From the sequence record LR025197.1: DNA of 59,880 nucleotides; one strand, 5' to 3'. Made by a program: the position numbers and the translations under genes. The stretch's first letter is position 1. Each line of letters opens with the position of its first letter. Shown in pieces: positions 3,048 through 20,032 of this stretch. Origin of the DNA: Escherichia phage vB_Eco_SLUR75. A model generated the notes under the pieces. It ran no database searches and was not told where the DNA came from. It worked only from the letters and a program-made list of their open reading frames with translations.

Positions 3048-3050
3048 ATA

Positions 3051-3521: not shown

Positions 3522-3522
3522 A

Positions 3523-4010: not shown

Positions 4011-4196
4011 ATGACCAAACTATACGCCGGATTGTTTTTATTTGCGACGTTAATGTTCGCTGGGCTTTATACCTATACAGTAGTCGAACAAACTTCCACG
4101 GTTATCCGAATCTTTGCAAGTACAGGGCTTTGCATCTGTCTTATTCTATTTGTTTTATGCATTGTTATTATCCAAGACCAAAGGAAAGTTAAATGA
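4011..4196 (+). CDS. Small membrane protein (61 aa)
   Basis: RBS AAGAGGGG; two predicted TM helices. Confidence 0.5.
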   Translation: MTKLYAGLFLFATLMFAGLYTYTVVEQTSTVIRIFASTGLCICLILFVLCIVIIQDQRKVK

Positions 4197-4918: not shown

Positions 4919-5000
4919 TCTCCTTAGATCAATTCTTCTTGCGCCGTATCAAGTTTCTCTGTTACCCTTGAGTGGTTCATGTCAAGCGGAGGAACTCGAT

Positions 5001-5438: not shown

Positions 5439-5442
5439 CTGA

Positions 5443-5465
5443 CGGGGCGTTAGCCCCTTTTATTT
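5443..5465 (+). terminator. Rho-independent terminator
   Basis: GGGGC-gtta-GCCCC hairpin followed by TTTTATTT. Confidence 0.6.
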
Positions 5466-5474
5466 GGAGGGAAC

Positions 5475-5819
5475 ATGTTCAATTCACCCAACGAACATTG
5501 GGCAGTTCTAGCGGGGTTTGCGTTTATCTCCCTCATTGGGGGAGCTCTCGGTTATGTCATGCGTACAATAGACGCTGGTAAGAAAGTACGGGCAAGCATT
5601 GCATTTCTTGAAGGCTTATCCGCCGCTTTCTTTGGCGTTATAATGTATGCGATCTACAGGGAGTTTAACATCAGCCTTTGGTTCGCTTTTGGCCTTGCTG
5701 GCCTATTTGCTTGGGCAGGTTCACGTGCTACGCTAAAAGCCCTAACGTCGCTTATAGCTTCACGGACAGGGATCAAACTCGATTCAGGGGACTGCAAACA
5801 TGAAAACGATTCTAAATAA
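5475..5819 (+). CDS. Putative holin (114 aa)
   Basis: Three predicted TM segments with a charged C-terminal tail; position in lysis cassette. Confidence 0.5.
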   Translation: MFNSPNEHWAVLAGFAFISLIGGALGYVMRTIDAGKKVRASIAFLEGLSAAFFGVIMYAIYREFNISLWFAFGLAGLFAWAGSRATLKALTSLIASRTGIKLDSGDCKHENDSK

Positions 5820-6276
5820 CTTCTTCAGTTTTATAAAAACTAAACCGCGTCTGTTTATCGAGTATTTGATGATCGGCGCGGTTGTGTTTTTATGCGGGGT
5901 GGCTGCATACTTGTGGTCACAGAACGAGCTCAGCAAAACTAATTTAAATCATGCTGAGCAAAGACTAACCGTTGTAGAACGGGACAATGCAAAGCTGGGC
6001 GAAGCTGTTGTATTTCTTGCATCCCAACGGGAGAAGGATACTGAATCCTATCGAAAATTGGCTTCAGCGATTGAAAGTGAGCAACATAACCACAGGTTGC
6101 TTCAGGACAAATTAAAAGCACTGGAGAAAAGCAATGCCGACGTCAAAGCTTATCTTAATGAGCGTGTTCCTGATGATTTGCGCAGGCTGCTCGACGGAGA
6201 TACAACCTCCACCACAGCCACAGATAGTCAAGATAAAACTTCCGGCTCATCTGTTGGTAGAATGTCGGGAAGTTGA
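5800..6276 (+). CDS. Putative i-spanin, Rz-like (158 aa)
   Basis: N-terminal TM helix LMIGAVVFLCGVAAYLW followed by a coiled-coil periplasmic domain; overlaps the o-spanin gene. Confidence 0.5.
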   Translation: MKTILNNFFSFIKTKPRLFIEYLMIGAVVFLCGVAAYLWSQNELSKTNLNHAEQRLTVVERDNAKLGEAVVFLASQREKDTESYRKLASAIESEQHNHRLLQDKLKALEKSNADVKAYLNERVPDDLRRLLDGDTTSTTATDSQDKTSGSSVGRMSGS

Positions 6277-6439
6277 TAAATATCCTTTGGTTTATACAAG
6301 GGACATTATCCAACGTTTGCAGGATACAGAAACAGCTCTGACTGAATGTAAACTGAGGGTTAAGGAAATCATACGCTATGAAGCTGAAAATGTTTCGCTT
6401 GATTTTGTAGGATCAAGCAATTATATTCAGCCTAAATAG
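6134..6439 (+). CDS. Putative o-spanin lipoprotein, Rz1-like (101 aa)
   Basis: Signal peptide with lipobox-like MICAGCS, proline-rich QPPPQPQ; starts inside the i-spanin gene in another frame. Confidence 0.5.
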   Translation: MPTSKLILMSVFLMICAGCSTEIQPPPQPQIVKIKLPAHLLVECREVDKYPLVYTRDIIQRLQDTETALTECKLRVKEIIRYEAENVSLDFVGSSNYIQPK

Positions 6440-6459
6440 CAATAAGAAAGGGGGCTTCC

Positions 6460-7017
6460 ATGAACGGGGCAAGTCAAGAGCAATATGATCGTGACTGGAC
6501 GAATTACATCCAGTATGCAAATAGCTTGTCCGCTGAAGAGATGGCAATACGTGACAAAGTTGTTGCTGAGTACATGTTCGACTACAATTGGACTAACGCT
6601 TGCATGAGATGCGGGTTCAATGCTATGTTTGCACAGGAGCTTGGCCAACGCTTTGCCACGGACTGTTATGTTCGATGGAAGCTCAAGGAGATTGAAAGAT
6701 CCCGTGTTCAACGTACTTCTGAGCAAGCTAACATTGAAGCAGACCTTGAGCGTCAGCATATCATTGAAGCATTAAAACGTGAAGCTCATTATACAGGACC
6801 GGGATCTTCTCAAGCTGCTAGAGTCGCCGCATTGGGCAAGCTTGCACAAATTTATGATTTGGATGCTCCCAAGAAGGCTAAGATTGATGTTACTAACAGA
6901 GGCGGCGTAATGATAGTCCCTGCTGTAGCAAATATTGACGAATGGGAAAAAACTGCATCCGAGTCTCAACAACGACTAGTTAAAGAGACTGAAGATGGAG
7001 CTAAACCGACAACCTGA
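6460..7017 (+). CDS. Putative terminase small subunit (185 aa)
   Basis: Size and position immediately upstream of, and overlapping, the large terminase gene. Confidence 0.45.
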   Translation: MNGASQEQYDRDWTNYIQYANSLSAEEMAIRDKVVAEYMFDYNWTNACMRCGFNAMFAQELGQRFATDCYVRWKLKEIERSRVQRTSEQANIEADLERQHIIEALKREAHYTGPGSSQAARVAALGKLAQIYDLDAPKKAKIDVTNRGGVMIVPAVANIDEWEKTASESQQRLVKETEDGAKPTT

Positions 7018-8554
7018 TAACATGCCGCGAGTCGTCTGGAAACCACATCCAGGTTCACAGACACTCGCTCTATCCTGCCCCGCTGATATTATCCTATACC
7101 ACGGAACTCGCGGTCCTGGAAAAACGGACTGCCAGCTTATGCGTTTCCGTAAGAATGTTGGTGTAGGGTACGGTAAATTTTGGAAGGGTATTATATTCGA
7201 CCGTGAATATAAAAATCTTGATGACCTTGTAACTAAATCCCAGCGTTGGTTTCCTGAATTTAAAGACGGGGCTAAATTCCTTAGCTCTAAGTCTGATTAT
7301 AAATGGGTTTGGCCTACAGGTGAAGAGCTACTGTTCCGCGTTGCTTGTAAAGAAAAGGATTACTGGTCTTATCACGGTCACGAATACCCATTTATCGGAT
7401 GGAACGAATTAACAAAATATCCGGACGGGCGTTTGTTTGAAGCTATGATGTCCTGTAACCGTTCATCTTTCTTACCAGAAGATAACCCAATTATTAATCC
7501 AGATGGTACGGTCACATATTTACCGGATATCCCTCTTGAAGTGTTTGCTACCAGTAACCCGTTTGGTGCGGGGCATAACTGGGTTAAGAAACGCTTCATT
7601 GACGCTGCACCGATGGGTAAAATACTCAGGAAGACTACGCGAGTGTTTAACCCGAGGACGCAGAAAGACGAAGATGTGGTTACGACGCAATGCCATATCT
7701 TTGGTTCGTACCGTGAAAACAAAAACCTAAGTCCAAAATATATTGCAGAACTTATGTCTATCACAGACCCGAACAAGCGTGCTGCATGGTTGGGCGGGAG
7801 CTGGGATATTACATCCGGTGGTATGTTCGATGATCTGTGGCGTAGCACTGTTCACAAAGTACGACCATTCCCGATTCCAGCGAGTTGGAAGATTACACGT
7901 TCTTTCGACTGGGGTTCTTCAAAACCGTTCTCTGTCGGTTGGTGGGCTATTAGTGATGGTTCGGATGTTGTGCGTGAAGATGGCACTACATTCTCCACGG
8001 TCCGCGGTGACCTGTTTAGGATTAACGAATGGTATGGGACCAACGGTAAAACAAACGAAGGTCTACATTTGCTGGACTCAGAAATTGCAAGCGGTATACT
8101 GGAGCGGGAATTGGCCTGGGGTATACACGATCGTGTAGTTCCTGGTCCTGCGGATAACTCCATTTGGGATCTGGAGAACAATAACTCCACCGCTGCAACA
8201 ATGGCGAAGAAAATTCGTCTTAACGGGAAGTTATACGACGGTATACATTGGAAGCGCAGTGATAAGTCTGCTGGGTCACGTAAACGGGGCTGGCAGAAAA
8301 TGCGTGAGTTCCTTAAAGCTGCACTGCGGGAAGATGCGAACGGTAAACCTTTGCCCGGTCCGCGCGAGAATCCAGCAATGTACATTTTTGATAACTGCAA
8401 CTATTTCTTTGAGCTGGTTCCAAGTCTACCTCGCGATGAAGTAGATCAGGACGACGTTGATACGGAATGTGAAGACCATATGGGTGATGAAGTTCGTTAT
8501 ATGGTTCTGGATCAAGCTGTTTATACAGGTGTTGGCAAAACTATCGGTATTTAA
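6995..8554 (+). CDS. Terminase large subunit (519 aa)
   Basis: N-terminal P-loop-like HGTRGPGKTD, size typical of TerL, directly upstream of portal. Alternative start at M10 (7022). Confidence 0.8.
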   Translation: MELNRQPDNMPRVVWKPHPGSQTLALSCPADIILYHGTRGPGKTDCQLMRFRKNVGVGYGKFWKGIIFDREYKNLDDLVTKSQRWFPEFKDGAKFLSSKSDYKWVWPTGEELLFRVACKEKDYWSYHGHEYPFIGWNELTKYPDGRLFEAMMSCNRSSFLPEDNPIINPDGTVTYLPDIPLEVFATSNPFGAGHNWVKKRFIDAAPMGKILRKTTRVFNPRTQKDEDVVTTQCHIFGSYRENKNLSPKYIAELMSITDPNKRAAWLGGSWDITSGGMFDDLWRSTVHKVRPFPIPASWKITRSFDWGSSKPFSVGWWAISDGSDVVREDGTTFSTVRGDLFRINEWYGTNGKTNEGLHLLDSEIASGILERELAWGIHDRVVPGPADNSIWDLENNNSTAATMAKKIRLNGKLYDGIHWKRSDKSAGSRKRGWQKMREFLKAALREDANGKPLPGPRENPAMYIFDNCNYFFELVPSLPRDEVDQDDVDTECEDHMGDEVRYMVLDQAVYTGVGKTIGI

Positions 8555-8565
8555 CTGGAGGGTAT

Positions 8566-10062
8566 ATGGGTATTGATGCAACTCACCCGCTATATGACAA
8601 GTGGAAGGACGCATGGGTTAAGTGCAACGACTGCTATGAGGGTGAAGATAAAATTAAGGAAGAAGGTGTTAAATATCTACCACCTTTAGCTTCCATGATT
8701 ATTGATGGGATGAATAATCCTAATGATTTGGGCTTTCAACGTTGGCTCGCTTATCGTCTGCGTGCTAACTTCCCTGACGATTATTCAAGTGCGGTTACAA
8801 ACAATTTAGGTCTGCTACACCAGAAGCCTCCTACAATCCAGCTCCCACCTGAAATGGAATACATGCGGGAGCTGTGTACTGCGGACGGTGAAGACATTAT
8901 TGCTCTGCTACGTCGCATCAATGAAATGCAGTTAAAAAATGGACGTTTGGGCCTGCTGCTGGACTTGCCGAAAGGTGAGGATGTAAATAACAGACCTTAT
9001 ATTAGCGTTTATGATGCTTTATCCATTATCAACTGGGATGATGGTAAAGATGAATTGGGCAATATCAACTTGAACATGGTTGTTCTGGATGAAAGCGGTC
9101 CTGTACGTGTCAATCAGTTTGACTGGAAAGAAGAGAAGCGTTATCGCGTTCTACAATTAGGTCCAATGGACACAGATGAAGTAGCAGGTGGAGCGGTCTA
9201 CTCCCAACATCTGTTTATTAACAATACCAATTATGATGAAGGGCAAATGATTGCTCCTTATTATAAAGGTAATACGCTGGATGAAATTCCTTTCCAGTTT
9301 GTCAATACAACAGATATTACCCCAGCACCGGAAGCGCCGCCATTGTTGGGTCTTGCTAACATTTGTCTAAGCATGTACCGAAGTGACGCGGATTACCGCC
9401 AATGCTTGCATATGCAGGGTCAGGATACTTTAGTTGTTGTTGGTGGTTCCATGGAAAATGGAGATAAAGCCCCTCAGCGTATTGGTCCTGGTGCAGTCAT
9501 TAACGTTTCTCAGGGAGGTGACGCTAAATATGTAGGTGTTAGCGGTGACGGTTTGTCCGAGCAACGTCTCGCACTGGTAGCGGATAAGCAGGAAGCCCAA
9601 ATTAAAGCCGGGCAAATGGTAAACAATACCAAGAGTACGCAGGAATCAGGCGAAGCTATGAAAACGCGTATTGCTGCGCGTACAGCTAGTTTGATTCGGA
9701 TTGCGTATACTGGTGCGGCTGGTCTGGAAAACTTGCTGAAGGTTTGCGCTAAGTGGATGGGCGCTGATCCCGAGAAAGTTGTGGTTAAGCCTAATCTTGA
9801 ATTTACCAAGAGCATGTTTAACGGTCAGGACTTTGTTCAAATTATTACTGCACGCAACCTTAAGGCTCCGATCAGCTTGCAGTCTATTCATGGCTGGCTT
9901 GTTGATCAGGGCTTAACCACACTAAGCTTTGAAGAAGAAATGGCAATTCTTGAAGAAGAGCTTAAGAAGTGGCCTCTGCCCGATGATGCTAAAGCTGATT
10001 TAAACGCAGAGCAGCAAGTAAGCAAAGATCCTAAGGAAGACGACGCTTCCGATAAAGAATAG
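8566..10062 (+). CDS. Portal protein (498 aa)
   Basis: About 500 aa, between terminase and scaffold/capsid genes; acidic C-terminus. Confidence 0.75.
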   Translation: MGIDATHPLYDKWKDAWVKCNDCYEGEDKIKEEGVKYLPPLASMIIDGMNNPNDLGFQRWLAYRLRANFPDDYSSAVTNNLGLLHQKPPTIQLPPEMEYMRELCTADGEDIIALLRRINEMQLKNGRLGLLLDLPKGEDVNNRPYISVYDALSIINWDDGKDELGNINLNMVVLDESGPVRVNQFDWKEEKRYRVLQLGPMDTDEVAGGAVYSQHLFINNTNYDEGQMIAPYYKGNTLDEIPFQFVNTTDITPAPEAPPLLGLANICLSMYRSDADYRQCLHMQGQDTLVVVGGSMENGDKAPQRIGPGAVINVSQGGDAKYVGVSGDGLSEQRLALVADKQEAQIKAGQMVNNTKSTQESGEAMKTRIAARTASLIRIAYTGAAGLENLLKVCAKWMGADPEKVVVKPNLEFTKSMFNGQDFVQIITARNLKAPISLQSIHGWLVDQGLTTLSFEEEMAILEEELKKWPLPDDAKADLNAEQQVSKDPKEDDASDKE

Positions 10063-10157
10063 TTGCAACTTCCAAGTTGATTGGTTTATATTAACGAACA
10101 CGGGGCTGGGACGGCTCAGCTCCAAAAACGTCACACGGGTGACAACGGAGATAAGAA

Positions 10158-11030
10158 ATGAAAAAGAGTTCTGTAGCTATTAGTGTTGGTATGGCTTTAA
10201 TTAATCCACGCGCTCGCGGTGAAGGTGATGTGGAACTGGAATACGAATATGCATCTGAGGAAGAGATCCCGGCAGAGTTTGCAACTCTTTACGCAGAGCA
10301 GGGCGGTAAATACGTTCTTGCAAAAGTTAAAGGTGTAGCCCCTGCTGATAGCGTTCGTCGTCTGGAAAGTGCGTTAGCTAAAGAACGTAACGACCATCGT
10401 CAGGTGAAGCAACAGATTAGCGCACTTGGGCGTCCGGTTGAAGAAGTCCTTGCGGACCTTGATCGTATCCCTCAACTGGAAGCTGCCGCTAACGGTAAAG
10501 GTACTCCGGAAGACATCGAAAAGATGGTTAAAGCCCGTCTTGCTCCGCTCGAGCGTCAATTGCAAACTGTGGCAGCTGAACGCGATTCCGTTAAGCAGGA
10601 AATTGAAGGCTACCGCACTCGCGAAACTAAAGCGAAAATTAAAGACGCAGTTATTGCCGCTGCATCCGGTGCTAAGCTGCGTCCGTCTGCTATCGAAGAT
10701 GCGGTGACTTATGCACAGTTGCAAATGACAGTCGACGAAAACGGCAATGTGGTTACGAAAGATGGGGCGGGTGTAACTCCATACCTAACCCCGGCGGATT
10801 GGCTTAACGAGATCCTCCCGAAACGTCCTCACTGGGTTGAGGGTTCTGCTGGTGGCGGTGCATCTGGTCCGGGTGCTGGCGGTCATCACGGTGAAGACCC
10901 ATACAGTCACGACGGTTGGAACATCTCTAAGCAGATGAATCTCTGGAAAACTAATCAATCTTTAGCTAAACGCTTAGCTGAAAAGAATGGCGTAGATCCG
11001 CTGAAGCCTGTACGTCCTGCTAAGAAATAA
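10158..11030 (+). CDS. Putative scaffolding protein (290 aa)
   Basis: Charged coiled-coil protein between portal and major capsid genes. Confidence 0.55.
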   Translation: MKKSSVAISVGMALINPRARGEGDVELEYEYASEEEIPAEFATLYAEQGGKYVLAKVKGVAPADSVRRLESALAKERNDHRQVKQQISALGRPVEEVLADLDRIPQLEAAANGKGTPEDIEKMVKARLAPLERQLQTVAAERDSVKQEIEGYRTRETKAKIKDAVIAAASGAKLRPSAIEDAVTYAQLQMTVDENGNVVTKDGAGVTPYLTPADWLNEILPKRPHWVEGSAGGGASGPGAGGHHGEDPYSHDGWNISKQMNLWKTNQSLAKRLAEKNGVDPLKPVRPAKK

Positions 11031-11152
11031 GTTGACATCCCGACGTCCCTGATGTTAAGTTTCAACACATCAGGGACACGGGTTCCTAAACAGCCTTCCA
11101 CGGGGAAAGGCTACCAACAGTAAACAAATCAATCCTTTTCCTGGAGACAAGT

Positions 11153-12214
11153 ATGTCTAAATCTAAAATTATTCTGCCATTTGGTCGTGGTGAAACTGAC
11201 CTAACTCGTTTGACGGATGTCATTGTCCCTGAGATCTTCACTGGTTATGTGCAGACGCAGACCGCTGAACTTTCTGCCCTGATTCAATCCGGTGCGGTTG
11301 TGATGGACGAGCGTTTATCAGCTAACCTTGCTGGTGCAGGTCTGACTTTTAACGAGCCGTTCTATAACGACCTGAAAGATGAAGACGAAGATATCGCGGT
11401 TGATAAAGGTAATCCGTCAAAACCGTCTAATATCACTACCGGATCTGAAGTTCAGGTTCGTATGAGTCGTTCAAAATCCTGGGGTTCTGCGGATCTGGTA
11501 TCAGCTTTGATCGGTAACGACCCAATGACCGCTATCGGTAATCGCGTGTCTGCGTGGTGGGTTCGCCGTCTGCAAGCTGCATACATCGCAACCTGGAAAG
11601 GTGTATTTGCTAATGCGAAGAAATCTCATAACGACGATTTGACTTTCGACATTTCTGGCGAGTCCTTTACGAATAACCAGACCAACTTTACCGCGTCTAA
11701 CTTCATCAACGCAACTGCAACGATGGGCGATGCTGCTCGCGGTCTGACCATGATTATGGTACACTCTACCGTTCGTAACCGTATGCGTCAGTTGAACCTG
11801 ATCGACTTCATTCCAGATGCTCGCGGTGAAACTCAGTTTGAGTATTATCAGGGTCTGCGTATTATTGAAGACGACTCCATGCCGCACGATCCGTCTACTG
11901 GTGTGTTTGAAAGCTGGCTGTTCGGCCCGGGCGCGACTGCAATGGGTGCTGGATCACCGAAAGTTCCGACCGCTGTGGTGCGTGACGAAGCCGCTAACCA
12001 AGGCGCTGGTGAAGAAGTTCTTCACAACCGTGTTGAATGGATTCTGCATCCAGTTGGTCATGCTTGGGCTGCTGCTCAAACTGCTAAAGGTGGTCCGTCT
12101 AACGCTGCTACCACTAACAACCTGGCCCATGAAGATTCCTGGCGTCGTGCGTTCCCTGAGCGCAAGCAGCTTAAAGTTGCACGCCTGATCACTCGTGAGT
12201 ATCAGGGTTCCTAA
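11153..12214 (+). CDS. Major capsid protein (353 aa)
   Basis: Position after scaffold; flanked by a TTGACA-plus-hairpin element upstream and a terminator downstream. Confidence 0.7.
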   Translation: MSKSKIILPFGRGETDLTRLTDVIVPEIFTGYVQTQTAELSALIQSGAVVMDERLSANLAGAGLTFNEPFYNDLKDEDEDIAVDKGNPSKPSNITTGSEVQVRMSRSKSWGSADLVSALIGNDPMTAIGNRVSAWWVRRLQAAYIATWKGVFANAKKSHNDDLTFDISGESFTNNQTNFTASNFINATATMGDAARGLTMIMVHSTVRNRMRQLNLIDFIPDARGETQFEYYQGLRIIEDDSMPHDPSTGVFESWLFGPGATAMGAGSPKVPTAVVRDEAANQGAGEEVLHNRVEWILHPVGHAWAAAQTAKGGPSNAATTNNLAHEDSWRRAFPERKQLKVARLITREYQGS

Positions 12215-12245
12215 GGCTTCACTCAACGCCGCGCTGTAGTATTTT

Positions 12246-12272
12246 GGGGACATCTTATGTCCCCTCTTTTTT
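12246..12272 (+). terminator. Rho-independent terminator after capsid gene
   Basis: GGGGACA-tctta-TGTCCCC hairpin followed by TCTTTTTT. Confidence 0.6.
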
Positions 12273-12284
12273 AGGAGAACAACC

Positions 12285-12608
12285 ATGCGTTATCAACGTT
12301 ATGAACGACATGACTTGATGGAAAAATCGTTGCAGGTGGAGCCAATTTCAATTACTCTCGATCCTGCTACGATTGACACCACAACTTCAGAAGTAAAAAC
12401 GGTTACTGTTAAAATAAACTTTGTCCCAGGCGGAACTACAAACAAAGCGTATAGCGCGTCAGTTGACGGTTCCTCTGCTACAATTAAAGACAACGGGGAC
12501 GGTACAATTACTGTGACCACAACCGAAAGCAGTGGTACTTCAAACTTGACAGTAACGTCCAAGGCAAAGGATAGTGTTACTGGTACATGTGTTATTAATG
12601 TGACCTAA
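12285..12608 (+). CDS. Ig-like (Big_2-type) domain protein, likely capsid decoration (107 aa)
   Basis: Thr/Ser-rich beta-strand pattern VTVKINF...GDGTITVTTTESSGTSNLTVTSKA typical of bacterial Ig-like domains. Confidence 0.55.
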   Translation: MRYQRYERHDLMEKSLQVEPISITLDPATIDTTTSEVKTVTVKINFVPGGTTNKAYSASVDGSSATIKDNGDGTITVTTTESSGTSNLTVTSKAKDSVTGTCVINVT

Positions 12609-12624
12609 AAATAAGGATTAAACA

Positions 12625-13278
12625 ATGAAGACATTAATTGAAGCATTGTTAGAACTTGATCCGGATAACCCGAATCATTGGACTAGCGACGGTCTACCTA
12701 AAGTTGACGCTCTGCGTTTCGCTACCGCTAACCCGTCTTTAACCCGCGACGATATTACAACTGCTGCTCCGCTGTTTACCCGCGATAACCGCGTGCTGGA
12801 AGAGCCCGAGGCAGTGGAACCTGTTAAATCTGCTGATCCAGTTTTACATGAAGCTGTCAAACAGGAGAAAGCTCATGAAGAACAAAAGAAAGTCGCGGTT
12901 GCAACGATGCAAATCGAAGTTAAGATTAGCGAAGCACTGCGTGCTCTTCTGGAGCCGGAAAAAATCGGTGACGCTTCCAGCTTAACCGATGAAGAACTCA
13001 AAGCGAAGCGCGAAAAGCTTAGCAATGTGGTTAAAGAGATTGCCCACACTAAGCACGCGTTGGAGCTCGCTATCGCAGACGTTCAAGCGGATCTGGATAA
13101 GATTATCGTTGAGCAGGAGCGTCGTCGTCCTAAGTCCGGTCTTACTGCAACTCAGATGTATCTTGAAGCGCAGAAAAAACGTAAACCGGAAGACATGCTT
13201 TCTGACCATCGCTTCCAGAACCCTATTGACGATCCGGTCGCCCGTATGGTTGCACGTAATATGATGCGTCGAGGTTAA
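12625..13278 (+). CDS. Hypothetical head-associated protein (217 aa)
   Basis: In structural module; charged coiled-coil. Confidence 0.45.
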   Translation: MKTLIEALLELDPDNPNHWTSDGLPKVDALRFATANPSLTRDDITTAAPLFTRDNRVLEEPEAVEPVKSADPVLHEAVKQEKAHEEQKKVAVATMQIEVKISEALRALLEPEKIGDASSLTDEELKAKREKLSNVVKEIAHTKHALELAIADVQADLDKIIVEQERRRPKSGLTATQMYLEAQKKRKPEDMLSDHRFQNPIDDPVARMVARNMMRRG

Positions 13279-13416
13279 CCATGGAAATGAGCCATAGACA
13301 ATATGTGTTGTGGCTCCTCCGACGTAATAGAAAACGGCGTCAAGAAGACGCCGTTTCTGTTCCTGAAGAAGAGCTCCCGCCACTTATCCCTACAACCATC
13401 GCAATGAGGAAGAAAG

Positions 13417-13923
13417 ATGGAGATTCCACTGATAGTTGAAGATGGTACTGGTGTACCGGACGCCAACAGTTATGTCACCATTGAACAAGTCCGCATGTAT
13501 GCAGCAATGCGAGGTATTGTACTTCCAAGTGAAGACGAAGATCTAAAGACAAAGATCTTTGATGCTATGGATTTTGTGGAAGGGTACAGCCAACGCTTTA
13601 AAGGTTATAAAATTAACCCACAGCAACCGCTAAATTGGCCACGCTACGGGGTGTTTGTGGACGGGTTCGAGCTACCCCAAAGCCCCTTACCAAAGGCGCT
13701 TATAAACGCTGTTTGCCAGCTTACAGCGGACTCAGCTACTGGCGGTCCTCTTAATGGGAAAACTACTGCATATGCAGTCAAAAGAACTAAAGTAGAAGGT
13801 CTTGAGATTGAATACGCAACTGGTAGCACAGCACAGTCAGGTCCAGCAAAAACATATGATAAAGCTATGACGTTTTTATCACCTTTGCTGGGTTATCAGA
13901 TGGGTAATAGATTGATACGGTGA
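13417..13923 (+). CDS. Putative head-tail adaptor/connector (168 aa)
   Basis: Position between capsid and tail genes; call by synteny only. Confidence 0.4.
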   Translation: MEIPLIVEDGTGVPDANSYVTIEQVRMYAAMRGIVLPSEDEDLKTKIFDAMDFVEGYSQRFKGYKINPQQPLNWPRYGVFVDGFELPQSPLPKALINAVCQLTADSATGGPLNGKTTAYAVKRTKVEGLEIEYATGSTAQSGPAKTYDKAMTFLSPLLGYQMGNRLIR

Positions 13924-13926
13924 TTT

Positions 13927-14307
13927 ATGAGCTTTCCTTACGAACAGCTAGTTGAAGCTGCAAAGCAAATGATCAACGATGCTGGTGTTAACTGTACCCT
14001 TGTTGTTATGGAGCAAGGGGAAGGTCAAGACGAATGGGACGATCCAAGCGTTGAAAAACGCTACCCATTCATTGGAGCTTTCCTTTCACCGAAGGAAAAG
14101 ATGATTGGTGGCAGTCTTGTTTCTGCTGGTGAACTGAAAGTGTTGACTTACCCAATGACACCTCCATTGACTCGCGATAAAGCAATGACTGCACGCATTG
14201 AGCGTGTGTCACCGGATGGGGAACTGGAAGTGTGGACAATAAATGAGTTTGTTGATACACGACCAGCTAACGTTTCTGTTCTTTACACTTTTAAGGTGAC
14301 GCGATAA
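13927..14307 (+). CDS. Putative head closure / neck protein (126 aa)
   Basis: Synteny; tightly packed. Confidence 0.4.
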   Translation: MSFPYEQLVEAAKQMINDAGVNCTLVVMEQGEGQDEWDDPSVEKRYPFIGAFLSPKEKMIGGSLVSAGELKVLTYPMTPPLTRDKAMTARIERVSPDGELEVWTINEFVDTRPANVSVLYTFKVTR

Positions 14308-14714
14308 TGGGATTCGGGGCGGATATTCGACGTGCAAGTCAGAAGGTACTTGTTCAGACAAGCGAGCAGGCCAAAAAAGTCGTTGTCAAGTTCACAGAGA
14401 ACGTGATACAGGATACTCCTGTTAAGACCGGACGCACAAAAGGTGGTTGGCGGTCATCCATTGGTGCGCCGTATGCAACGGAAACTATCCGCCTCGATCC
14501 TACTGGAGAGATGGCTAAAGCTGAAGCCCGAGTTGTTGCACGCCAACTACCTAATGATAAAGACTGGACTTTCTATTTTAGCAACCTGACACCATATGCT
14601 GGCAAACTGGAGTTCTTAGGTTGGTCACAGCAAGCCCCGAACGGTATGGTTCGTATTAACGTAGCGAAGCTTCCAATGTTGATACGTCAAGCTATAGCAG
14701 AAGGAAAACTATAA
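14307..14714 (+). CDS. Putative tail completion / neck protein (135 aa)
   Basis: Synteny; start overlaps upstream stop. Confidence 0.4.
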   Translation: MGFGADIRRASQKVLVQTSEQAKKVVVKFTENVIQDTPVKTGRTKGGWRSSIGAPYATETIRLDPTGEMAKAEARVVARQLPNDKDWTFYFSNLTPYAGKLEFLGWSQQAPNGMVRINVAKLPMLIRQAIAEGKL

Positions 14715-15163
14715 TGCTTGGATACGATTTCATTAATGATGCATTTAATAAGATGCTACGCGAAGCAGTTGGACTGGATATTGGTATAGCGTGGAAGAAT
14801 AAGAAGTTCACACCTAAAGCCAACCAGATGTGGTTAAAGGCAATCAATGCTCCCGCTTCCACTTACGCTGCAACGCTAGGTGATAACGGTCTGAATGAAA
14901 TTCCAGGCTTCTACCAAATCACAGTATATAGCCCTTTAAACACTGGAACGTCTAAGCAGAATCAAATCTTGGATTCTATTCGGAAAAAGTTTAAACTGGG
15001 CTTGCGTATCCCGTGCCCGGATGACCACACGTTACGGATTGTCAGTTTAGACTTTTCGCAAGGTGGACAAACTTCGCTGAACGATTTTACCAAAGGCGGG
15101 GTTGAAGATAACTGGGACGTTAACTTTATCACAATCTATTGGTCGGCTCGTGAGCCGAGGTAA
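14714..15163 (+). CDS. Putative tail terminator / neck protein (149 aa)
   Basis: Synteny, immediately upstream of the major tail protein gene. Confidence 0.4.
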   Translation: MLGYDFINDAFNKMLREAVGLDIGIAWKNKKFTPKANQMWLKAINAPASTYAATLGDNGLNEIPGFYQITVYSPLNTGTSKQNQILDSIRKKFKLGLRIPCPDDHTLRIVSLDFSQGGQTSLNDFTKGGVEDNWDVNFITIYWSAREPR

Positions 15164-15177
15164 GAGAGGATCTAAAT

Positions 15178-16101
15178 ATGGCTACAGGTTCACGTTATTC
15201 GTGTTACTACGTCAAAGAAGATGTAAGCAACACTACGCCAGCGAGTGCGAAGTTTACTCCGTTCCGTGTGACCAGCTCCGGTCTGGACATTAATATTGCA
15301 ACGCTGGAATCTGAAGAACTGCGCGATGACGCTGAAACTGCGGACTTCCGCCTCGGTGCTCGCAGTGTTGAAGGTACAGTAACGGGCGAAATGTCCTTCG
15401 GCACCTTCGATGATCTTATTGCTGCTGCACTTCGTGGGGAGTGGCAAGACAACGTCCTTAAAGGCGGTATTATCCGTCAGTCATTTACTTTCGTAGACTA
15501 TAACGCAGATCTACCGTCAGGTAAATATACAATTTATCGCGGTTGCGAAGTTAATAGCATGACTTTCTCATTGTCTGCGGAAAACATGACCACAGTGGAA
15601 TTCGGTATTGTTGGTCGCTCAATGGAAATTGCGGAATCGCTTCCATCTGGTGCAACTATTAAAGAGCGTACGACTACTTCACCGATGGATGGTTTCTCCG
15701 GCCGCTTGCTGGAAAACAACGAAGAAATCAGCGTTATTACGGAAATCGGTCTTACCGTTGAAAACGATATTGCGCCACGCTTTGTTGTTGGTTCTAAGTT
15801 CTCCATTGAACCGTCCGCTGGTCGTCGTGCGGTAACTGGTACAGCTAACGTGTACTTCCTGGATAACAAGCTGCGTATGAAGTATCTGGATGAAGTGGAA
15901 ACTTCAATCAAGTTTGATCTGATTGACCCAAGCAATCCGGAACAAAAATACACTGTGGAAATTCCTCGCGTGAAATTCACTGAAGCTCCGCGTCCTATTG
16001 ACGGTGAAGGGGATATCATGCTTAATATGGGCTACCGCGGATTGCTGGACCCAGCAACCGCAAGTTCCATCAAAATTACCCGCGTTGTAGCGGGAGCCTA
16101 A
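15178..16101 (+). CDS. Major tail (tube) protein (307 aa)
   Basis: Position upstream of the chaperone pair and tape measure gene. Confidence 0.6.
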   Translation: MATGSRYSCYYVKEDVSNTTPASAKFTPFRVTSSGLDINIATLESEELRDDAETADFRLGARSVEGTVTGEMSFGTFDDLIAAALRGEWQDNVLKGGIIRQSFTFVDYNADLPSGKYTIYRGCEVNSMTFSLSAENMTTVEFGIVGRSMEIAESLPSGATIKERTTTSPMDGFSGRLLENNEEISVITEIGLTVENDIAPRFVVGSKFSIEPSAGRRAVTGTANVYFLDNKLRMKYLDEVETSIKFDLIDPSNPEQKYTVEIPRVKFTEAPRPIDGEGDIMLNMGYRGLLDPATASSIKITRVVAGA

Positions 16102-16110
16102 GGATAAGAA

Positions 16111-16518
16111 ATGACCGACACCAAAAAAGCCAAAGTTGCAGTAGCTAAAAGCTTCCGTGATTTTAAAACTGTGAGCCGGGCCAACGACCCGGCAAACACT
16201 AAGCCTATGAATGTGGTTATTCCTGGTGTAGGCGACACTGGCGAAAAACTCTACATTCGTAGCCGCTACTGCACAGAGTATCGTGACGCAGAATTGAAAG
16301 CACAACGTCAACTGTTAGCACTTATGCAGGGTAAAGACGGTGAAGTAACGGATGCTATGAAGGAAGATATCCTTACCCGTTCACTGTGTAACCTTGTAGC
16401 AGGTTGGACTTTTGACGAGCCGCCGACTGTTGACAACGTGTTTGAGTTCTTAACGGAGAACCCAACTGTCCGAGAAGATCTTAACGTATTTGCCGCCAAA
16501 GATAGTAATTTTTTCTAA
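16111..16518 (+). CDS. Tail assembly chaperone, G-like (135 aa)
   Basis: Immediately upstream of the tape measure gene; 3' end carries slippery heptamer T_TTT_TTC. Confidence 0.7.
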   Translation: MTDTKKAKVAVAKSFRDFKTVSRANDPANTKPMNVVIPGVGDTGEKLYIRSRYCTEYRDAELKAQRQLLALMQGKDGEVTDAMKEDILTRSLCNLVAGWTFDEPPTVDNVFEFLTENPTVREDLNVFAAKDSNFF

Positions 16519-16916
16519 AAGCGCGCAGACAGTTAATTGATAAGAAGATCCTCCAATGGGAACTAAATAGCAAAGTCCCCGGCGGGGGATCTTCTTTATT
16601 ATCGCAACTGCAAAAGGTTGAGGAACAGTCTGGTAAGACGCCACCTAAGCTTAAAGAATATCGGGAAAAGGAAATACCGGTTTGCTTTGAATACCTGTCT
16701 ACTTTATTTGATGACATTTACACTGGAGGGGATTTTAGTTATACAGAATTGCACAGCTATCAGGTAACAATGGGCTTACATCTTCAACCGTACGAATGCG
16801 AAATACTGCGACAGCTATGGCTTGAAAAGCGCGTGTCTGAAGCTGAACAAAATGCTAAACTCATGGAAAGTCAAATGCAAAATCAGAATAAAGGTAGAAG
16901 GAAAAGGAGAAGGTAA
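16111..16916 (+). CDS. Tail assembly chaperone frameshift product, GT-like (about 268 aa)
   Basis: Fusion of the G-like ORF with the -1 frame extension (LKARRQLIDKK...NKGRRKRRR); requires ribosomal slippage at 16509..16515. Confidence 0.6.
16509..16515 (+). other. Programmed -1 ribosomal frameshift slippery site (T TTT TTC)
   Basis: X_XXY_YYZ heptamer in the zero frame two codons before the chaperone stop; the -1 frame is open for 133 codons, ending at the TAA that overlaps the tape measure ATG. Confidence 0.65.
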
Positions 16917-19900
16917 TGGCCGAAACTGCTTCGCTAGTAATCAGAGTTGACGCGAAAGGGATTAGCACAGCGGACTCCATGCTGCGCAACCTTGCGCGTA
17001 CAGGTGACACAGCGGAGCGTTCCGCTCAACGTGTCACATCAAGCTATAAAACATTGTCTAACACATCTAACGAACTTGCAACTGTCACAAGTCGTTTAGA
17101 TGCTGCAATCGTAGGAATGATCAGCGTTGACACCATTAGTCGTGTTATATCGCTGTCTGACTCCTGGACCATCCTTACCAACAAACTTGAACTAGCTCGT
17201 ATGGGTAATGAAACCGTTGCGGATTCCCAGCAACGTGTATTTGATATTGCTCAGCGGTCACGTACAAGCTTGGAAGCAACTGCAACTCTATATTCCCGTC
17301 TCCAGCGTGCAATGAAGAATACTGGTATGACGGGTATGGAGCTTGGACGTATCACTGAAACAATCAACAAAGCGATGATTGTTTCCGGTGCAACGTCACA
17401 TGAAGCAAGCGCTGCATTGATTCAGTTTTCGCAAGCAATGGCATCCGGTGTTCTGCGTGGGGATGAATTCCGCTCTGTTGCAGAACAAGCTCCGCGCTTA
17501 ACTCAAATCATGTCCGATGCATTAGGTGTTACCATTGGACAATTGCGCGAAATGGCCTACAGCGGCAAGTTAACCGCCGATGTGGTTATCAAATCGTTGT
17601 CTGGTGCTGCGGATACAATTGATAAAGAATTTAGCCGCACTATGCCAACGTTTAACCAGCAATGGACGGTTGCAACAAACAACTTGACTAAGTTCATGGG
17701 CGAATCCCAAAAGACTCAAGGTGCGGTTGCTGCATTGGGACAGACGTTTGTTGCATTATCCGAAAACTTAGGAACGGTTGTAACGGTTGGTTCAGCTTTA
17801 GCCACAGTAATTACCGCCCGTATCATTACGGCGATGCTTGCTAAGACTAAAGCGTCTATAGCTGCTGCAAAAGCATCTCAGATGGAAGCTGCACAGACTG
17901 CGGCAACTACTGCTGTGATGCAAAGCTCTATTGGCGTTACTGCACAGAAAGCGGCGGCCGATCGTGCTGCTTCGCTTGCAGCGTTACAGGTTGCTCGCGG
18001 GTCATTAGCGGTTGCTAAGGGTACGGCAGCGGAAGCAGGTGCACGTCTTGCGCTTATTAACGCTACCCGTGCGCATTCGGCAGCAATTATGGCGGACGTA
18101 CAAGCGCGGCAAGCGCTCAATGCTGCGCTTAATGCAACTGTACCAGCCGCAAGCCGTGCAGCTACAGCAATGAGCGTGCTGCGCGGTGCTATGGGGTTAA
18201 TTGGCGGTCCTGTTGGTGTAGCAATGCTGGCAGCGGGTGCAATTTACTCCTATAAAGCATCGCTGGAAGCTGGTCGTGCGGAAAACAATCAGTTTGCGGA
18301 TAGTGTTGATACTGTACGCGATAAACTGATGCAGATGACAGAAGCTCAGTTGGCAGCTAACGCAGTTAAAGCTCGCGCAATTCTCCCCGAACTTGAAGAG
18401 CAAATGAAGCGGGAGCAAACTGCTCTTAAATCTGCAACGGAAACGCAGAAGTTCTATGAAGCACAATTAAAACGTCGCGCTGCGTCCGGTCGTAATACAG
18501 CTAGTGCCGAGAAGAATTTACAGATTGCTACGGATAACGTCAAGCTTGCTGCTGAACGTGCTGAAGAAGCTCAACGCCGTTACAACAATGTCTTAGAAAT
18601 GACAAGCCCTGCTATCGAGAAGATAATTCCGTTAGCTCGTCAGCTTGCAGCGGATATGAAAGCAGTGCTTAATATCAAATCCGGTCCGCTTATTGACGAG
18701 AAAGTGCTTGATCGTTTTAAAGGCCAGTTAGGTGATGTCAACCGTGAGATTGATGTTAATACGGTTAAGGGTGCTGGCAATGCTCGCCAAGCTGCAATCC
18801 TTAGTGGACTGTATCAGACGCTGGGCAAGGATGCGGATACATACGGAAGTCTTATTCGCAAAGTAGCTATGGGCCAGGACGTTAGCTCAGAGGCAACAAG
18901 CGAATCCGCTAAAGAGCTTGTTAAATATGCTCAAGATTTAGCGCAAGCTCTTGGCAAAAACTACGATCTTGAAGAAGCAGAGAGAAACCGGACTAAAGCT
19001 ACAAAAGACGGTATTAAAGCAGAACAACAGAACGCCAAAGTTATTGACGATTTACGCAACAAGCTTAACGAAGTAACCACAGGAGTTAAGGAAAACGCCA
19101 AAGCAAAAGCTCAAGCTGTGGCTTTAAACAAGCTCAATACGTCTGCAACTGCCGCGGAAAAAGCAGAAGTTATGAGTCTTGCTGCTGCGATTTATGAAGC
19201 GGAAGAAGCTCAAAAGAAACTGGACGAGCGTAAAAAGAATCGTAAAGTTGCTCAAGGTCTGTTAGATGAAGGTATGACGGACTATGAAAAAATCGCGTAT
19301 GAGCAAAATACTAAGATTGCGGATCTTAATGCAAAACAACGGGCGGATGATCTAGCTCACTATCAGCTTTACGAAGACGCTAAGACGCAAGTCCTGAAGA
19401 AAGCGAGCATGGAAAGGGAAAATCTGGATAAAGTCCTTATGAACCGAATGATATCCTTTTCTCAGGAATCCTTAGGCATCATAATGGATGGCCTGTCGCA
19501 GGCTGTAAGCCAGCAGAACTTCTTTTATAAATCTATGTTTGCAGCACAGAAAGCAATGCAAATCCCATCAATCCTTGCTAACACGGAAACGGCAGCATCT
19601 GCGGCGCTTGCATGGGGTACACAGCAAGGAGGTGCTACGATGGGTGCAACAATGGCAGCTATAGTGAAAACTATGGGTTATGCGTCCGCTGCTACTGTGG
19701 GTGGCTTAGCGATTGCTGGTATGGCTCACGACGGTATTGATAACGTTCCGCGTGAAGGTACATGGTTGCTGGATAAGGGTGAACGTGTACTTAATGCTCC
19801 GTCTAATGACAAGTTAAATCGCTTCCTGGATAGCCAAGCTTCACAACAAGGTGGCGTGAATATGTCCGGTGGTGTTAGCATTGTTCAGTATATCACGGTG

Positions 19901-20032
19901 CAAGGAAATGGCGATGCAGCACTCACACAAGCCATGCAAAAAGCGGCCCGTGATGGCGCTGAGCAGGGATATAATAAAGTTCTTAATGACTTTGCATCCC
20001 GAGGAACAATTCGTAGAACTGCAATGGGGTAA
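16916..20032 (+). CDS. Tape measure protein (1038 aa)
   Basis: Very long Ala/Gln-rich alpha-helical protein downstream of the frameshifted chaperone pair. Confidence 0.85.
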   Translation: MAETASLVIRVDAKGISTADSMLRNLARTGDTAERSAQRVTSSYKTLSNTSNELATVTSRLDAAIVGMISVDTISRVISLSDSWTILTNKLELARMGNETVADSQQRVFDIAQRSRTSLEATATLYSRLQRAMKNTGMTGMELGRITETINKAMIVSGATSHEASAALIQFSQAMASGVLRGDEFRSVAEQAPRLTQIMSDALGVTIGQLREMAYSGKLTADVVIKSLSGAADTIDKEFSRTMPTFNQQWTVATNNLTKFMGESQKTQGAVAALGQTFVALSENLGTVVTVGSALATVITARIITAMLAKTKASIAAAKASQMEAAQTAATTAVMQSSIGVTAQKAAADRAASLAALQVARGSLAVAKGTAAEAGARLALINATRAHSAAIMADVQARQALNAALNATVPAASRAATAMSVLRGAMGLIGGPVGVAMLAAGAIYSYKASLEAGRAENNQFADSVDTVRDKLMQMTEAQLAANAVKARAILPELEEQMKREQTALKSATETQKFYEAQLKRRAASGRNTASAEKNLQIATDNVKLAAERAEEAQRRYNNVLEMTSPAIEKIIPLARQLAADMKAVLNIKSGPLIDEKVLDRFKGQLGDVNREIDVNTVKGAGNARQAAILSGLYQTLGKDADTYGSLIRKVAMGQDVSSEATSESAKELVKYAQDLAQALGKNYDLEEAERNRTKATKDGIKAEQQNAKVIDDLRNKLNEVTTGVKENAKAKAQAVALNKLNTSATAAEKAEVMSLAAAIYEAEEAQKKLDERKKNRKVAQGLLDEGMTDYEKIAYEQNTKIADLNAKQRADDLAHYQLYEDAKTQVLKKASMERENLDKVLMNRMISFSQESLGIIMDGLSQAVSQQNFFYKSMFAAQKAMQIPSILANTETAASAALAWGTQQGGATMGATMAAIVKTMGYASAATVGGLAIAGMAHDGIDNVPREGTWLLDKGERVLNAPSNDKLNRFLDSQASQQGGVNMSGGVSIVQYITVQGNGDAALTQAMQKAARDGAEQGYNKVLNDFASRGTIRRTAMG

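What the first reader, a model, noticed from the sequence alone, without database searches (positions are those of the whole stretch)
16509..16916. Programmed -1 frameshift in the tail assembly chaperone, not represented in the ORF track
The G-like chaperone ORF ends ...AAT TTT TTC TAA. The heptamer T_TTT_TTC fits the X_XXY_YYZ slippery consensus, and I read the -1 frame codon by codon: it is open for 133 codons from the slip site to a TAA whose last base is the A of the tape measure ATG. The extension has no ATG-initiated ORF of its own above the size cutoff, so it can only be expressed as a G-T fusion (about 268 aa). A possible downstream stem (AAGATCC ... GGATCTT, about 16545..16593) could act as a stimulatory structure.
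Basis: seen in the sequence. Interest (0 to 1): 0.6.

Follow-up and report, generated by a model that had tools for sequence, protein, structure and literature searches.

The report
Tail chaperone G/GT frameshift site
This is the ordinary programmed -1 ribosomal frameshift that lets a tailed phage make a short and a long tail-assembly chaperone from one gene pair; it is real here, but it is already annotated in the type phage of the same genus.

Summary
The 135-aa ORF 16111..16518 ends AAT TTT TTC TAA. The -1 frame is closed by TAG and TAA just before 16509, then open to TAA 16914..16916, which overlaps the tape measure ATG. The two frames overlap over 10 nt only, and those contain an in-phase T_TTT_TTC. 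The first 78 extension codons have no ATG, GTG or TTG, yet evolve as coding sequence. The window is a Seuratvirus, 98.7% identical to phage Greed.

The predicted 268-aa fusion differs by 2 residues from the joined "tape measure chaperone" CDS ("ribosomal slippage") in the phage Seurat record. In 93 of 93 related loci the T part lies in the -1 frame. At least 82 carry an in-phase heptamer at the homologous codons, 61 of them T_TTT_TTC.

So this is a lambda G/GT-type frameshift, already known. No experiment on this phage group was found.

The downstream stem is real and longer than described (16538..16600), and its arms do not vary within the genus. Five divergent lineages have a hairpin at the same place. 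It starts 22-26 nt after the heptamer, outside the usual 5-9 nt, so a stimulatory role is unproven. More distant relatives have a helix at +5 to +8 instead.

The parts
15178..16101 (+). Major tail (tube) protein gene, immediately upstream of the chaperone pair
   Evidence: Pfam PF18906 Phage_tube_2, E = 2.4e-41. PHROG 290.
16111..16518 (+). G-like tail assembly (tape measure) chaperone ORF, 135 aa, the zero-frame product
   Evidence: ORF list. PHROG 569 positions 11-126 and PHROG 313 'tail assembly chaperone', E = 3e-11. Pfam PF08748 Phage_TAC_4 only at E = 0.048 for this protein, but matched at E <= 0.01 (best 1.9e-4) in 5 of 12 aligned relatives.
16509..16515 (+). Slippery heptamer T_TTT_TTC in X_XXY_YYZ phase, the only possible shift site
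   Evidence: Sequence. The -1 frame is closed at 16503-08 and the zero frame closes at 16516-18. The same in-phase heptamer is present in 61 of 93 related loci. Annotated as the slippage site in Seurat and SA80RD.
16516..16518 (+). Zero-frame stop codon TAA directly abutting the heptamer ('shifty stop' context)
   Evidence: Sequence. The same arrangement occurs in the Seuratvirus records examined, JenK1, HdK1, Kpn2-P2 and two IMG/VR relatives. More distant relatives have the stop 18-114 nt further on.
16515..16916 (+). T extension in the -1 frame: 133 codons plus stop TAA 16914-16. Expressed only as the C-terminal half of the 268-aa GT fusion, join(16111..16515,16515..16916).
   Evidence: Translation. 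Pfam PF23812 Phage_TAC_18, E = 1.5e-9, above cut-off. PHROG 569 positions 130-256. Third-position-biased substitutions in codons 1-78.
16538..16600 (+). Long irregular RNA hairpin inside the T coding sequence. Arms 16542-64 and 16574-96, apical loop 16565-73. Function not established.
   Evidence: MFE -33 kcal/mol, z = -5.1. More stable than synonymous recodings, p = 0.003. The most over-structured of 40 windows across G, T and TMP. No variable site in either arm among the Seuratvirus sequences compared, while the loop and flanks vary.
16770..16916 (+). 48-aa ATG ORF in the T frame that many GenBank records annotate as a separate gene. It is the tail end of the T extension, not an independent gene.
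   Evidence: Annotated in Greed, KurtStettler, CSP1C and SHIN8. Homology and coding constraint extend 85 codons upstream of this ATG.
16916..20032 (+). Tape measure protein gene. Its ATG overlaps the T stop (TAATG). GGAG at 16906-09 is the likely ribosome binding site.
   Evidence: Pfam PF20155 TMP_3, E = 1.6e-59. PHROG 339. Sequence.

Best explanation
Most ribosomes translating the tail assembly chaperone gene (16111..16518) terminate at TAA 16516-18 and release the 135-aa G protein. A minority slip one base backwards on U_UUU_UUC (16509-15). The Phe tRNA reads both UUU and UUC, so it can re-pair perfectly in the -1 frame. These ribosomes then read CUA at 16515 and continue for 133 codons to TAA 16914-16. 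The result is a 268-aa GT fusion.

By analogy with lambda gpG/gpGT, both proteins would bind the tape measure protein (16916..20032). The T half of the rare fusion would recruit the tube protein (15178..16101) so that the tail polymerises to the right length. Neither protein would end up in the virion.

Shown here: the frame geometry, the heptamer, coding constraint on the start-less extension, and conservation across the family. Inferred: that the shift is ribosomal, its efficiency (probably a few per cent), and the assembly role.
For: - **Geometry.** The two frames overlap over only 10 nt, and these consist of the heptamer plus the stop codon.
- **No independent start.** There is no ATG, GTG or TTG in the first 78 extension codons.
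- **Coding constraint on those codons.** Differences by codon position are 1/2/17 against phage Skure and 14/5/35 against STP-SP5. Synonymous to non-synonymous counts are 14:4 and 25:14. Nearly every change would be non-synonymous in the other two frames.
- **Protein families.** The extension matches Pfam PF23812 Phage_TAC_18 above its cut-off. PHROG 569 covers the G part and the T part consecutively, as a single protein.
- **Colinear fusions.** Fusion proteins built the same way from 12 lineages align without a break across the junction.
- **Family-wide frame.** In 93 of 93 loci with both halves, T is in the -1 frame.
- **Family-wide slippery motif at the homologous codons**: T_TTT_TTC in 61 loci, T_TTT_TTA in 5, A_AAA_AAG in 8 (moved about two codons downstream, with the Phe-Phe lost), A_AAT_TTT in at least 8, and only a U_UUU tetramer in 11.
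- **Motif efficiency.** In E. coli U_UU.C is the second most shift-prone tetramer. [quoted passage not shown]
- **Synteny.** The order is tube gene, G, T, tape measure gene.
- **Prior annotation.** The Seurat record (KM236243.1) and the SA80RD record (OL960575.1) carry a two-piece CDS and a 'ribosomal slippage' note at the same heptamer. The window fusion differs by 2 aa from each.
Against: - I found no protein-level evidence for this phage group, such as mass spectrometry or a reporter assay. The Seurat paper names the chaperone but does not discuss the shift.
- No canonical stimulator was seen. There is no obvious Shine-Dalgarno-like sequence in the about 25 nt read upstream of the heptamer (by eye, not scanned). 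No helix begins 5-9 nt downstream.
- The efficiency cannot be estimated from sequence.
- The window's G part alone does not reach any Pfam TAC cut-off.
- The only structure model obtained was unusable, with pLDDT 42.8.
Confidence: 0.9

Rival explanations
1. A sub-variant of the best explanation, giving the same product. The shift would not be a tandem P/A-site slip. Instead a single P-site tRNA-Phe would slip from UUC (16513-15) to UUU (16512-14) while the A site holds the slowly decoded stop codon UAA (a 'shifty stop'). The adjacent stop would then replace the proximal stem-loop used by distant relatives.
For: TAA abuts the heptamer here and in the Seuratvirus and Nonagvirus-like records examined. 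Vid5 has the stop one codon later. Among 27 non-redundant relatives whose G frame continues at least 18 nt, most have a helix that starts +5 to +8 after the motif. In published tail-chaperone sets the mean distance from slip site to stop is 26-36 nt, so a distance of 0 is an extreme (PMC10885494). Stop-adjacent shifting is an established phenomenon (Weiss et al. 1987, cited in PMC5009743).
Against: A full heptamer, not just a tetramer, is conserved, which points to two-tRNA slippage. K4PH164-type phages keep T_TTT_TTA with the stop 18 nt away and no strong proximal helix. The two mechanisms cannot be told apart from sequence.
Confidence: 0.3
2. Transcriptional slippage. RNA polymerase adds one extra U on the T6 run (16509-14), and the edited mRNA is read by standard translation into the G-T fusion.
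For: A homopolymer run is present, and many relatives have T7 (CTTTTTTTC). Slippage at homopolymer runs is a known alternative route to the same kind of fusion (PMC5009743).
Against: Six T is short for productive slippage by bacterial RNA polymerase. From my own knowledge, well-documented cases use about 9 or more A or T. Eleven relatives keep the -1 arrangement with only T4-T5 (AAT TTT ATC, GTT TTT ACC), where polymerase slippage is implausible but a U_UUU tetramer shift is possible. In at least 82 loci the motif fits the X_XXY_YYZ phase, which matters only to ribosomes.
Confidence: 0.04
3. No recoding. The distal part of the frame is translated on its own, from ATG 16770 (48 aa) or TTG 16749 (55 aa) as many records annotate it, or by termination-reinitiation after the G stop.
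For: Many GenBank records annotate a separate 48-aa ORF or a similar one.
Against: Protein homology and third-position-biased substitution begin directly after the heptamer, 78-85 codons upstream of those starts. The Pfam TAC_18 match (extension residues 35-104) begins 43-50 codons upstream of those starts and lies mostly before them. In relatives whose G continues 48-114 nt past the heptamer, the conserved T sequence overlaps the G tail, so reinitiation after the stop could not produce it.
Confidence: 0.04

Closest known systems
Bacteriophage lambda gpG/gpGT tail assembly chaperones and the conserved G/GT frameshift of dsDNA phages (Levin et al. 1993; Xu, Hendrix and Duda 2004, 2013, 2014; as summarised in PMC5009743)
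   Same: Two ORFs lie between the major tail gene and the tape measure gene. The second ORF is in the -1 frame, has no start of its own and ends at the tape measure gene. An X_XXY_YYZ heptamer sits at the end of the first ORF. The expected outcome is abundant G and rare GT.
   Different: The heptamer is U_UUU_UUC, whereas lambda uses G_GGA_AAG (from my own knowledge). Here the zero-frame stop abuts the heptamer. No significant sequence similarity to the lambda proteins was shown; the matching families are Pfam Phage_TAC_18 and Phage_TAC_4. Nothing has been tested experimentally in this phage group.
Escherichia phage Seurat CPT_Seurat13/14 'tape measure chaperone' (KM236243.1) and vB_EcoS_SA80RD SA80RD_14/15 (OL960575.1)
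   Same: Same genus, same heptamer, same join position and the same 268-aa product, with 2 aa differences from each.
   Different: Essentially nothing. Most other records of the genus (CAjan, Greed, slur01, the BASEL phages) lack the joined CDS and annotate a 48-aa ORF or nothing.
Phage T7 gene 10A/10B -1 frameshift (G_GUU_UUC)
   Same: An E. coli phage structural gene with a tRNA-Phe slip on U_UUC near the end of the ORF. The known stimulatory element is not at the canonical 5-9 nt distance: a sequence more than 200 nt downstream is involved (PMC5009743).
   Different: A different gene (capsid) and an imperfect heptamer. The distal element there is part of the transcription terminator. Here the candidate element is a hairpin 22-26 nt downstream whose role is untested.
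Phage P2 E/E+E' tail chaperone frameshift (T_TTT_TTG; recalled from Christie et al. 2002, not checked here)
   Same: A tail chaperone pair that uses a U-rich heptamer for a -1 shift.
   Different: A myovirus with a different protein family. The last base is G rather than C, so the A-site codon is read by tRNA-Leu, not tRNA-Phe.

Membership tests
Phage G/GT tail assembly chaperone pair with programmed -1 frameshift (Xu et al. 2004 type) | The gene pair lies between the major tail (tube) gene and the tape measure gene. | tested here: met
   Tube gene 15178..16101 (PF18906), G 16111..16518, T to 16916, tape measure gene 16916..20032 (PF20155).
Phage G/GT tail assembly chaperone pair with programmed -1 frameshift (Xu et al. 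2004 type) | The second ORF overlaps the end of the first in the -1 frame and lacks its own start for most of its length. | tested here: met
   The overlap is 16509..18. There is no ATG, GTG or TTG before 16749. T is in the -1 frame in 93 of 93 relatives.
Phage G/GT tail assembly chaperone pair with programmed -1 frameshift (Xu et al. 2004 type) | A slippery sequence (X_XXY_YYZ) lies in the overlap, in the phase of the upstream frame. | tested here: met
   T_TTT_TTC at 16509..15. Conserved or replaced by another slippery motif at the homologous codons across the family.
Phage G/GT tail assembly chaperone pair with programmed -1 frameshift (Xu et al. 2004 type) | The extension is under protein-coding selection and belongs to a chaperone family. 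| tested here: met
   Substitution pattern. PF23812 Phage_TAC_18 above cut-off, and in 12 of 12 family members. PHROG 569 spans both halves.
Phage G/GT tail assembly chaperone pair with programmed -1 frameshift (Xu et al. 2004 type) | The G part has the tail assembly chaperone sequence or fold. | tested here: inconclusive
   PHROG 313 'tail assembly chaperone', E = 3e-11. Pfam PF08748 only at E = 0.048 and below cut-off for the window protein, but matched in 5 of 12 relatives, best E = 1.9e-4. No PDB sequence relative. The AF2 single-sequence model has pLDDT 42.8 and is unusable.
Phage G/GT tail assembly chaperone pair with programmed -1 frameshift (Xu et al. 2004 type) | Both G and the GT fusion are made, at a high:low ratio, and both are needed for tail assembly. 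| not testable with these tools
   This needs proteomics or genetics. No such data were found for the Queuovirinae.
Canonical -1 PRF cassette (heptamer plus 3' structure at 5-9 nt) | A stable stem-loop or pseudoknot starts 5-9 nt after the heptamer. | tested here: not met
   The main helix starts at 16538-42, 22-26 nt after 16515. A weak outer helix at 16530 (14 nt) is not conserved in STP-SP5. Many of the distant relatives do have a helix at +5 to +8. The spacing rule is from PMC5009743.
Programmed transcriptional slippage | A long homopolymer run (typically 9 or more A or T in bacteria; from my own knowledge), with no dependence on reading phase. | tested here: not met
   The run is T6 here, and only T4-T5 in 11 relatives that keep the -1 arrangement.
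Rfam frameshift or other RNA families | A match at the gathering score to a curated RNA family over 16300..17000. | tested here: not met
   The best hits are generic hairpin-like miRNA models at 15-26 bits against cut-offs of 49-90.

The most novel reading that the evidence does not exclude
In enteric Queuovirinae and Vidquintavirus, the proximal stem-loop found 5-8 nt after the heptamer in Pseudomonas and marine relatives has been replaced by a different signal. That signal is a stop codon abutting U_UUU_UUC plus a selected hairpin about 20-35 nt downstream.

The hairpin would then be either an unorthodox long-spacer frameshift modulator or an element that protects the sparsely translated 400-nt T region from Rho-dependent termination or RNase, so that the tape measure gene is still expressed. 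Either way it would be a second, undescribed architecture of the G/GT recoding signal.
Probability: 0.3. Interest if true: 0.4.

Novelty: already known. Interest (0 to 1): 0.15.

Why it matters
For this window it matters mainly for annotation. The region 16519..16769 is coding, and the correct gene model is a joined CDS, join(16111..16515,16515..16916). Most public Seuratvirus and Nonagvirus records lack that model. They carry a spurious 48-aa ORF, or label G a "tail length tape measure protein".

The G/GT frameshift itself is textbook biology and is already annotated in the genus type phage. The only point of wider interest is the comparative pattern. One chaperone family keeps the same slip position over very large divergence, yet appears to use two different downstream contexts. 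That would give a compact natural system for asking what substitutes for a proximal stimulatory structure in bacterial -1 frameshifting.

Tried and rejected
- **Structure prediction.** A single-sequence AF2 model of G gave pLDDT 42.8, so I ran no fold search.
- **PDB profile search with A1.** It returned only a designed repeat protein and sub-threshold noise.
- **NCBIfam.** Nothing relevant.
- **Rfam.** No family matched over 16300..17000.
- **RNAalifold on nine Nonagvirus-like sequences.** No shared set of base pairs emerged. The hairpins occupy the same place but pair in registers shifted by 1-2 nt or more between clades. I therefore make no claim of classical covariation and built no covariance model.
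- **Terminator scan.** The apical part of the hairpin (16575-90) matches a loose terminator pattern, but the number of such matches in the region is no higher than in shuffles. I rejected this as evidence of a terminator.
- **Upstream stimulator.** I saw no Shine-Dalgarno-like sequence in the 25 nt upstream of the heptamer. This was by eye on the sequence.
- **Literature.** I found no paper that describes or tests this frameshift in Seuratvirus or Queuovirinae. The prior knowledge is the GenBank annotation.
- **Not run.** I did not use the search for homologous proteins, the representative-protein search, or the metagenome and genome scans. The phage records and IMG/VR loci already answered the question.

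Full report
**What is in the sequence.** The 135-aa ORF 16111..16518 ends AAT TTT TTC TAA. The -1 frame carries TAG at 16503-05 and TAA at 16506-08. It is then open from 16509 to TAA at 16914-16, whose last base is the A of the 1038-aa tape measure gene's ATG.

The two frames can therefore be joined only within 16509..16518. That stretch is the heptamer T_TTT_TTC, in X_XXY_YYZ phase, followed by the stop codon. A shift there gives 135 + 133 = 268 aa.

The extension frame has no ATG, GTG or TTG until 16749 (TTG) and 16770 (ATG). At this base composition an open run of 135 codons has probability about 4e-4. In-phase heptamers occur at 8 of 3304 codon positions in the surrounding tail genes. The only imprecisions concern the late starts and the length of the stem.

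**What the locus is.** The window is a Seuratvirus (Queuovirinae). The 1-kb region is 95-99% identical to 32 phage records, with Escherichia phage Greed the best at 98.7%.

The gene order is tube protein (PF18906), G, T, tape measure protein (PF20155). The extension matches Pfam PF23812 (Phage_TAC_18) above its cut-off. PHROG 569, a 256-position model, matches the G part at positions 11-126 and the T part at 130-256, so the family was built from fusion proteins. On its own the G part reaches PHROG 313 "tail assembly chaperone" but not a Pfam cut-off. Pfam Phage_TAC_4 matches at E <= 0.01 (best 1.9e-4) in 5 of 12 aligned relatives.

**Is the extension translated?** Against the more divergent Seuratviruses Skure and STP-SP5, differences in the first 78 extension codons fall 1/2/17 and 14/5/35 on codon positions 1/2/3. 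These are the codons that have no possible start. Synonymous to non-synonymous counts are 14:4 and 25:14. In the other two frames almost every change would be non-synonymous. The stretch is therefore under selection as protein in the -1 frame. Given the frame geometry, it can be reached only from G through the heptamer.

**Comparative evidence.** A tblastn search with the T part found 86 phage records, down to 25-35% identity, in several genera and hosts. I built the fusion in the same way for 12 lineages. These span Seuratvirus, STP-SP5, a Klebsiella Queuovirinae phage, Vidquintavirus, Nonagvirus, Craquatrovirus, Amoyvirus, Abidjanvirus and unclassified Pseudomonas and Klebsiella phages. The proteins align colinearly across the junction, with the first Phe invariant.

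A scan of IMG/VR added 72 loci. HMMs of the two halves, searched against the three forward frames, place T in the -1 frame relative to G in 93 of 93 loci where both halves are found. The in-phase motifs at the homologous codons are listed below.

| Motif | Loci | Note |
|---|---|---|
| T_TTT_TTC | 61 | same motif as the window |
| T_TTT_TTA | 5 | |
| A_AAA_AAG | 8 | about two codons downstream; the Phe-Phe is lost, so the shifty motif, not the residues, is what persists |
| A_AAT_TTT | at least 8 | |
| U_UUU tetramer only | 11 | AAT TTT ATC or GTT TTT ACC |

The motif also suits the host. In E. coli U_UU.C is the second most shift-prone tetramer. [quoted passage not shown]

**Already known.** That position maps to the last T of the TTT codon of the same heptamer. 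The record of vB_EcoS_SA80RD does the same. The window's fusion differs from each by 2 residues and is identical to the unannotated fusion of CAjan.

Most other records lack the join. CAjan, Greed, slur01, the BASEL phages and the Pharokka-style records annotate a 48-aa ATG ORF, a TTG ORF or nothing. RefSeq calls G a "tail length tape measure protein".

The general phenomenon is the lambda G/GT frameshift, conserved in dsDNA tailed phages (reviewed in PMC5009743). The Seurat paper names the chaperone but does not discuss the shift. I found no paper that tests it in this phage group.

**The downstream stem.** Its arms are 16542-64 and 16574-96, extended to about 16538 and 16600. MFE is -33 kcal/mol and z = -5.1 against dinucleotide shuffles. 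Four results suggest it is under selection.

1. **Synonymous recoding.** It is more stable than recodings of the same peptide drawn from the phage's own codon usage (p = 0.003). The same holds for the corresponding 102 nt in:
   - Vid5 (0.007)
   - JenK1 (0.010)
   - Kpn2-P2 (0.027)
   - an IMG/VR relative (0.007)
   - STP-SP5 (0.023)

   It does not hold for the K4PH164-type phages.
2. **Window control.** Among all 102-nt windows tiled over G, T and the tape measure gene, this window is the most over-structured in the window (1 of 40), Vid5 (1 of 29) and L027 (1 of 40). It is second in JenK1 (2 of 30) and Kpn2-P2 (2 of 13).
3. **Variation within Seuratvirus.** Among the seven Seuratvirus sequences compared there is no variable site from 16504 to 16531, nor in either arm (16539-64, 16578-97). 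The apical loop and the flanking coding sequence vary freely.
4. **Different sequences, same place.** The hairpins of different clades use different sequences and pairing registers at roughly the same codons.

For that last reason RNAalifold finds no common pair set, and I claim no classical covariation.

**Is it a stimulator?** Its main helix begins 22-26 nt after the heptamer. Typical 3' stimulators start 5-9 nt away, and a minority 12-15 nt (PMC5009743). A weak outer helix at 14 nt is not kept in STP-SP5.

The family appears to use two contexts. Among the non-redundant relatives whose G frame continues at least 18 nt beyond the motif, most show a helix beginning at +5 to +8. In that group the mean pairing probability rises from 0.3 to 0.9 over +5 to +10. 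The enteric clades instead place the zero-frame stop 0-6 nt after the heptamer and carry the distal hairpin.

In published tail-chaperone sets the mean distance from slip site to stop is 26-36 nt (PMC10885494), so a distance of 0 is an extreme. A reasonable but untested reading is that slow decoding of the abutting stop supplies the pause. The hairpin would then have some other or additional role, such as protecting the rarely translated T region or modulating the shift at long range. Rfam holds nothing similar.

**Rivals.**
- **Transcriptional slippage** is unlikely. The run is only T6, and 11 relatives keep the arrangement with T4-T5.
- **Independent initiation or reinitiation** fails. Homology and coding constraint start directly after the heptamer. 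In relatives the conserved T sequence overlaps up to 114 nt of the G tail.
- **Tandem slip or P-site slip at the stop** cannot be distinguished from sequence. Both give the same protein.

**Verdict.** The finding is correct and well supported. It is an ordinary member of the best-known class of phage recoding, and it is already annotated in the same genus, so interest is low. What is new here is modest. It consists of the family-wide documentation of the slip position, the correction of widespread mis-annotation, and the observation of a selected but non-canonically spaced hairpin.

**Limits.**
- No experimental data exist for this phage group.
- The hairpin statistics rest on five or six lineages and on energy models.
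- The synonymous-site analysis within the genus used seven sequences.
- No usable structure model was obtained.

Noticed in passing
window 16538..16600; homologous positions in L012, L013, L015, L027: A hairpin that appears to be under selection lies 20-35 nt downstream of the slip site in five divergent enteric phage lineages. Each lineage uses a different sequence and pairing register. More distant relatives instead have a helix at +5 to +8. The function is unknown.
   Followed up: partly
window 16111..16518 and 16770..16916; records NC_028776.1, NC_028831.1, MZ501091.1, KX534337.1, PP627280.1: The public annotation is inconsistent. RefSeq and Pharokka-style records call the G chaperone a 'tail length tape measure protein', which is PHROG 569's label. 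Many records carry a 48-aa ORF that is only the tail of the T extension. Only Seurat, SA80RD and probably SA126VB have the joined CDS.
   Followed up: yes
L029-L032, L035, L041, L058, L067 (IMG/VR loci): In one sub-clade the slippery motif is A_AAA_AAG, placed about two codons downstream of where the others have T_TTT_TTC, and the Phe-Phe is not kept. The slip site has been replaced rather than lost.
   Followed up: partly
L073, L075, L077-L081, L087, L090, L092, L093: Eleven related loci have no full heptamer in the 22-91 nt overlap, only AAT TTT ATC or GTT TTT ACC (a U_UUU tetramer). The zero-frame stop is 9 nt downstream and, in heptamer-bearing loci with the same junction layout, a helix starts at about +7.
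   Followed up: no
L016 (Escherichia phage HdK1, MK373794.1): The tape measure gene is annotated in two pieces (837 nt, then a separate ORF). The T frame runs a few codons past the tape measure start. This may be a sequencing error or a real frameshift in the tape measure gene.
   Followed up: no
Hits H20 (Aeromonas phage SD04, MH230177.1) and H25 (Cronobacter phage CSP1, KY982929.1): Phages recorded as infecting Aeromonas schubertii and Cronobacter sakazakii are about 96% identical to E. coli Seuratviruses over this region. Either the host range is unusually broad or the host labels deserve a check.
   Followed up: no
window 16079..16094: A GC-rich inverted repeat, CCCGCGTTGTAGCGGG, lies at the very end of the tube gene, just before the G ribosome binding site, with no T-run after it. 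HdK1 annotates a putative terminator at the equivalent place. It may be a partial terminator or stability element that sets the tube-to-chaperone expression ratio.
   Followed up: no
window 16914..16918 and 16906..16909: The T stop and the tape measure start overlap as TAATG, with GGAG 6 nt upstream of the ATG. The same T-stop/tape-measure-start overlap is seen in most of the enteric relatives examined.
   Followed up: no
L054 and L065/L066: In these IMG/VR loci the -1 frame is open for 355-592 nt upstream of the G stop, far more than the 10-180 nt seen elsewhere. I did not check whether this is chance in GC-rich DNA.
   Followed up: no
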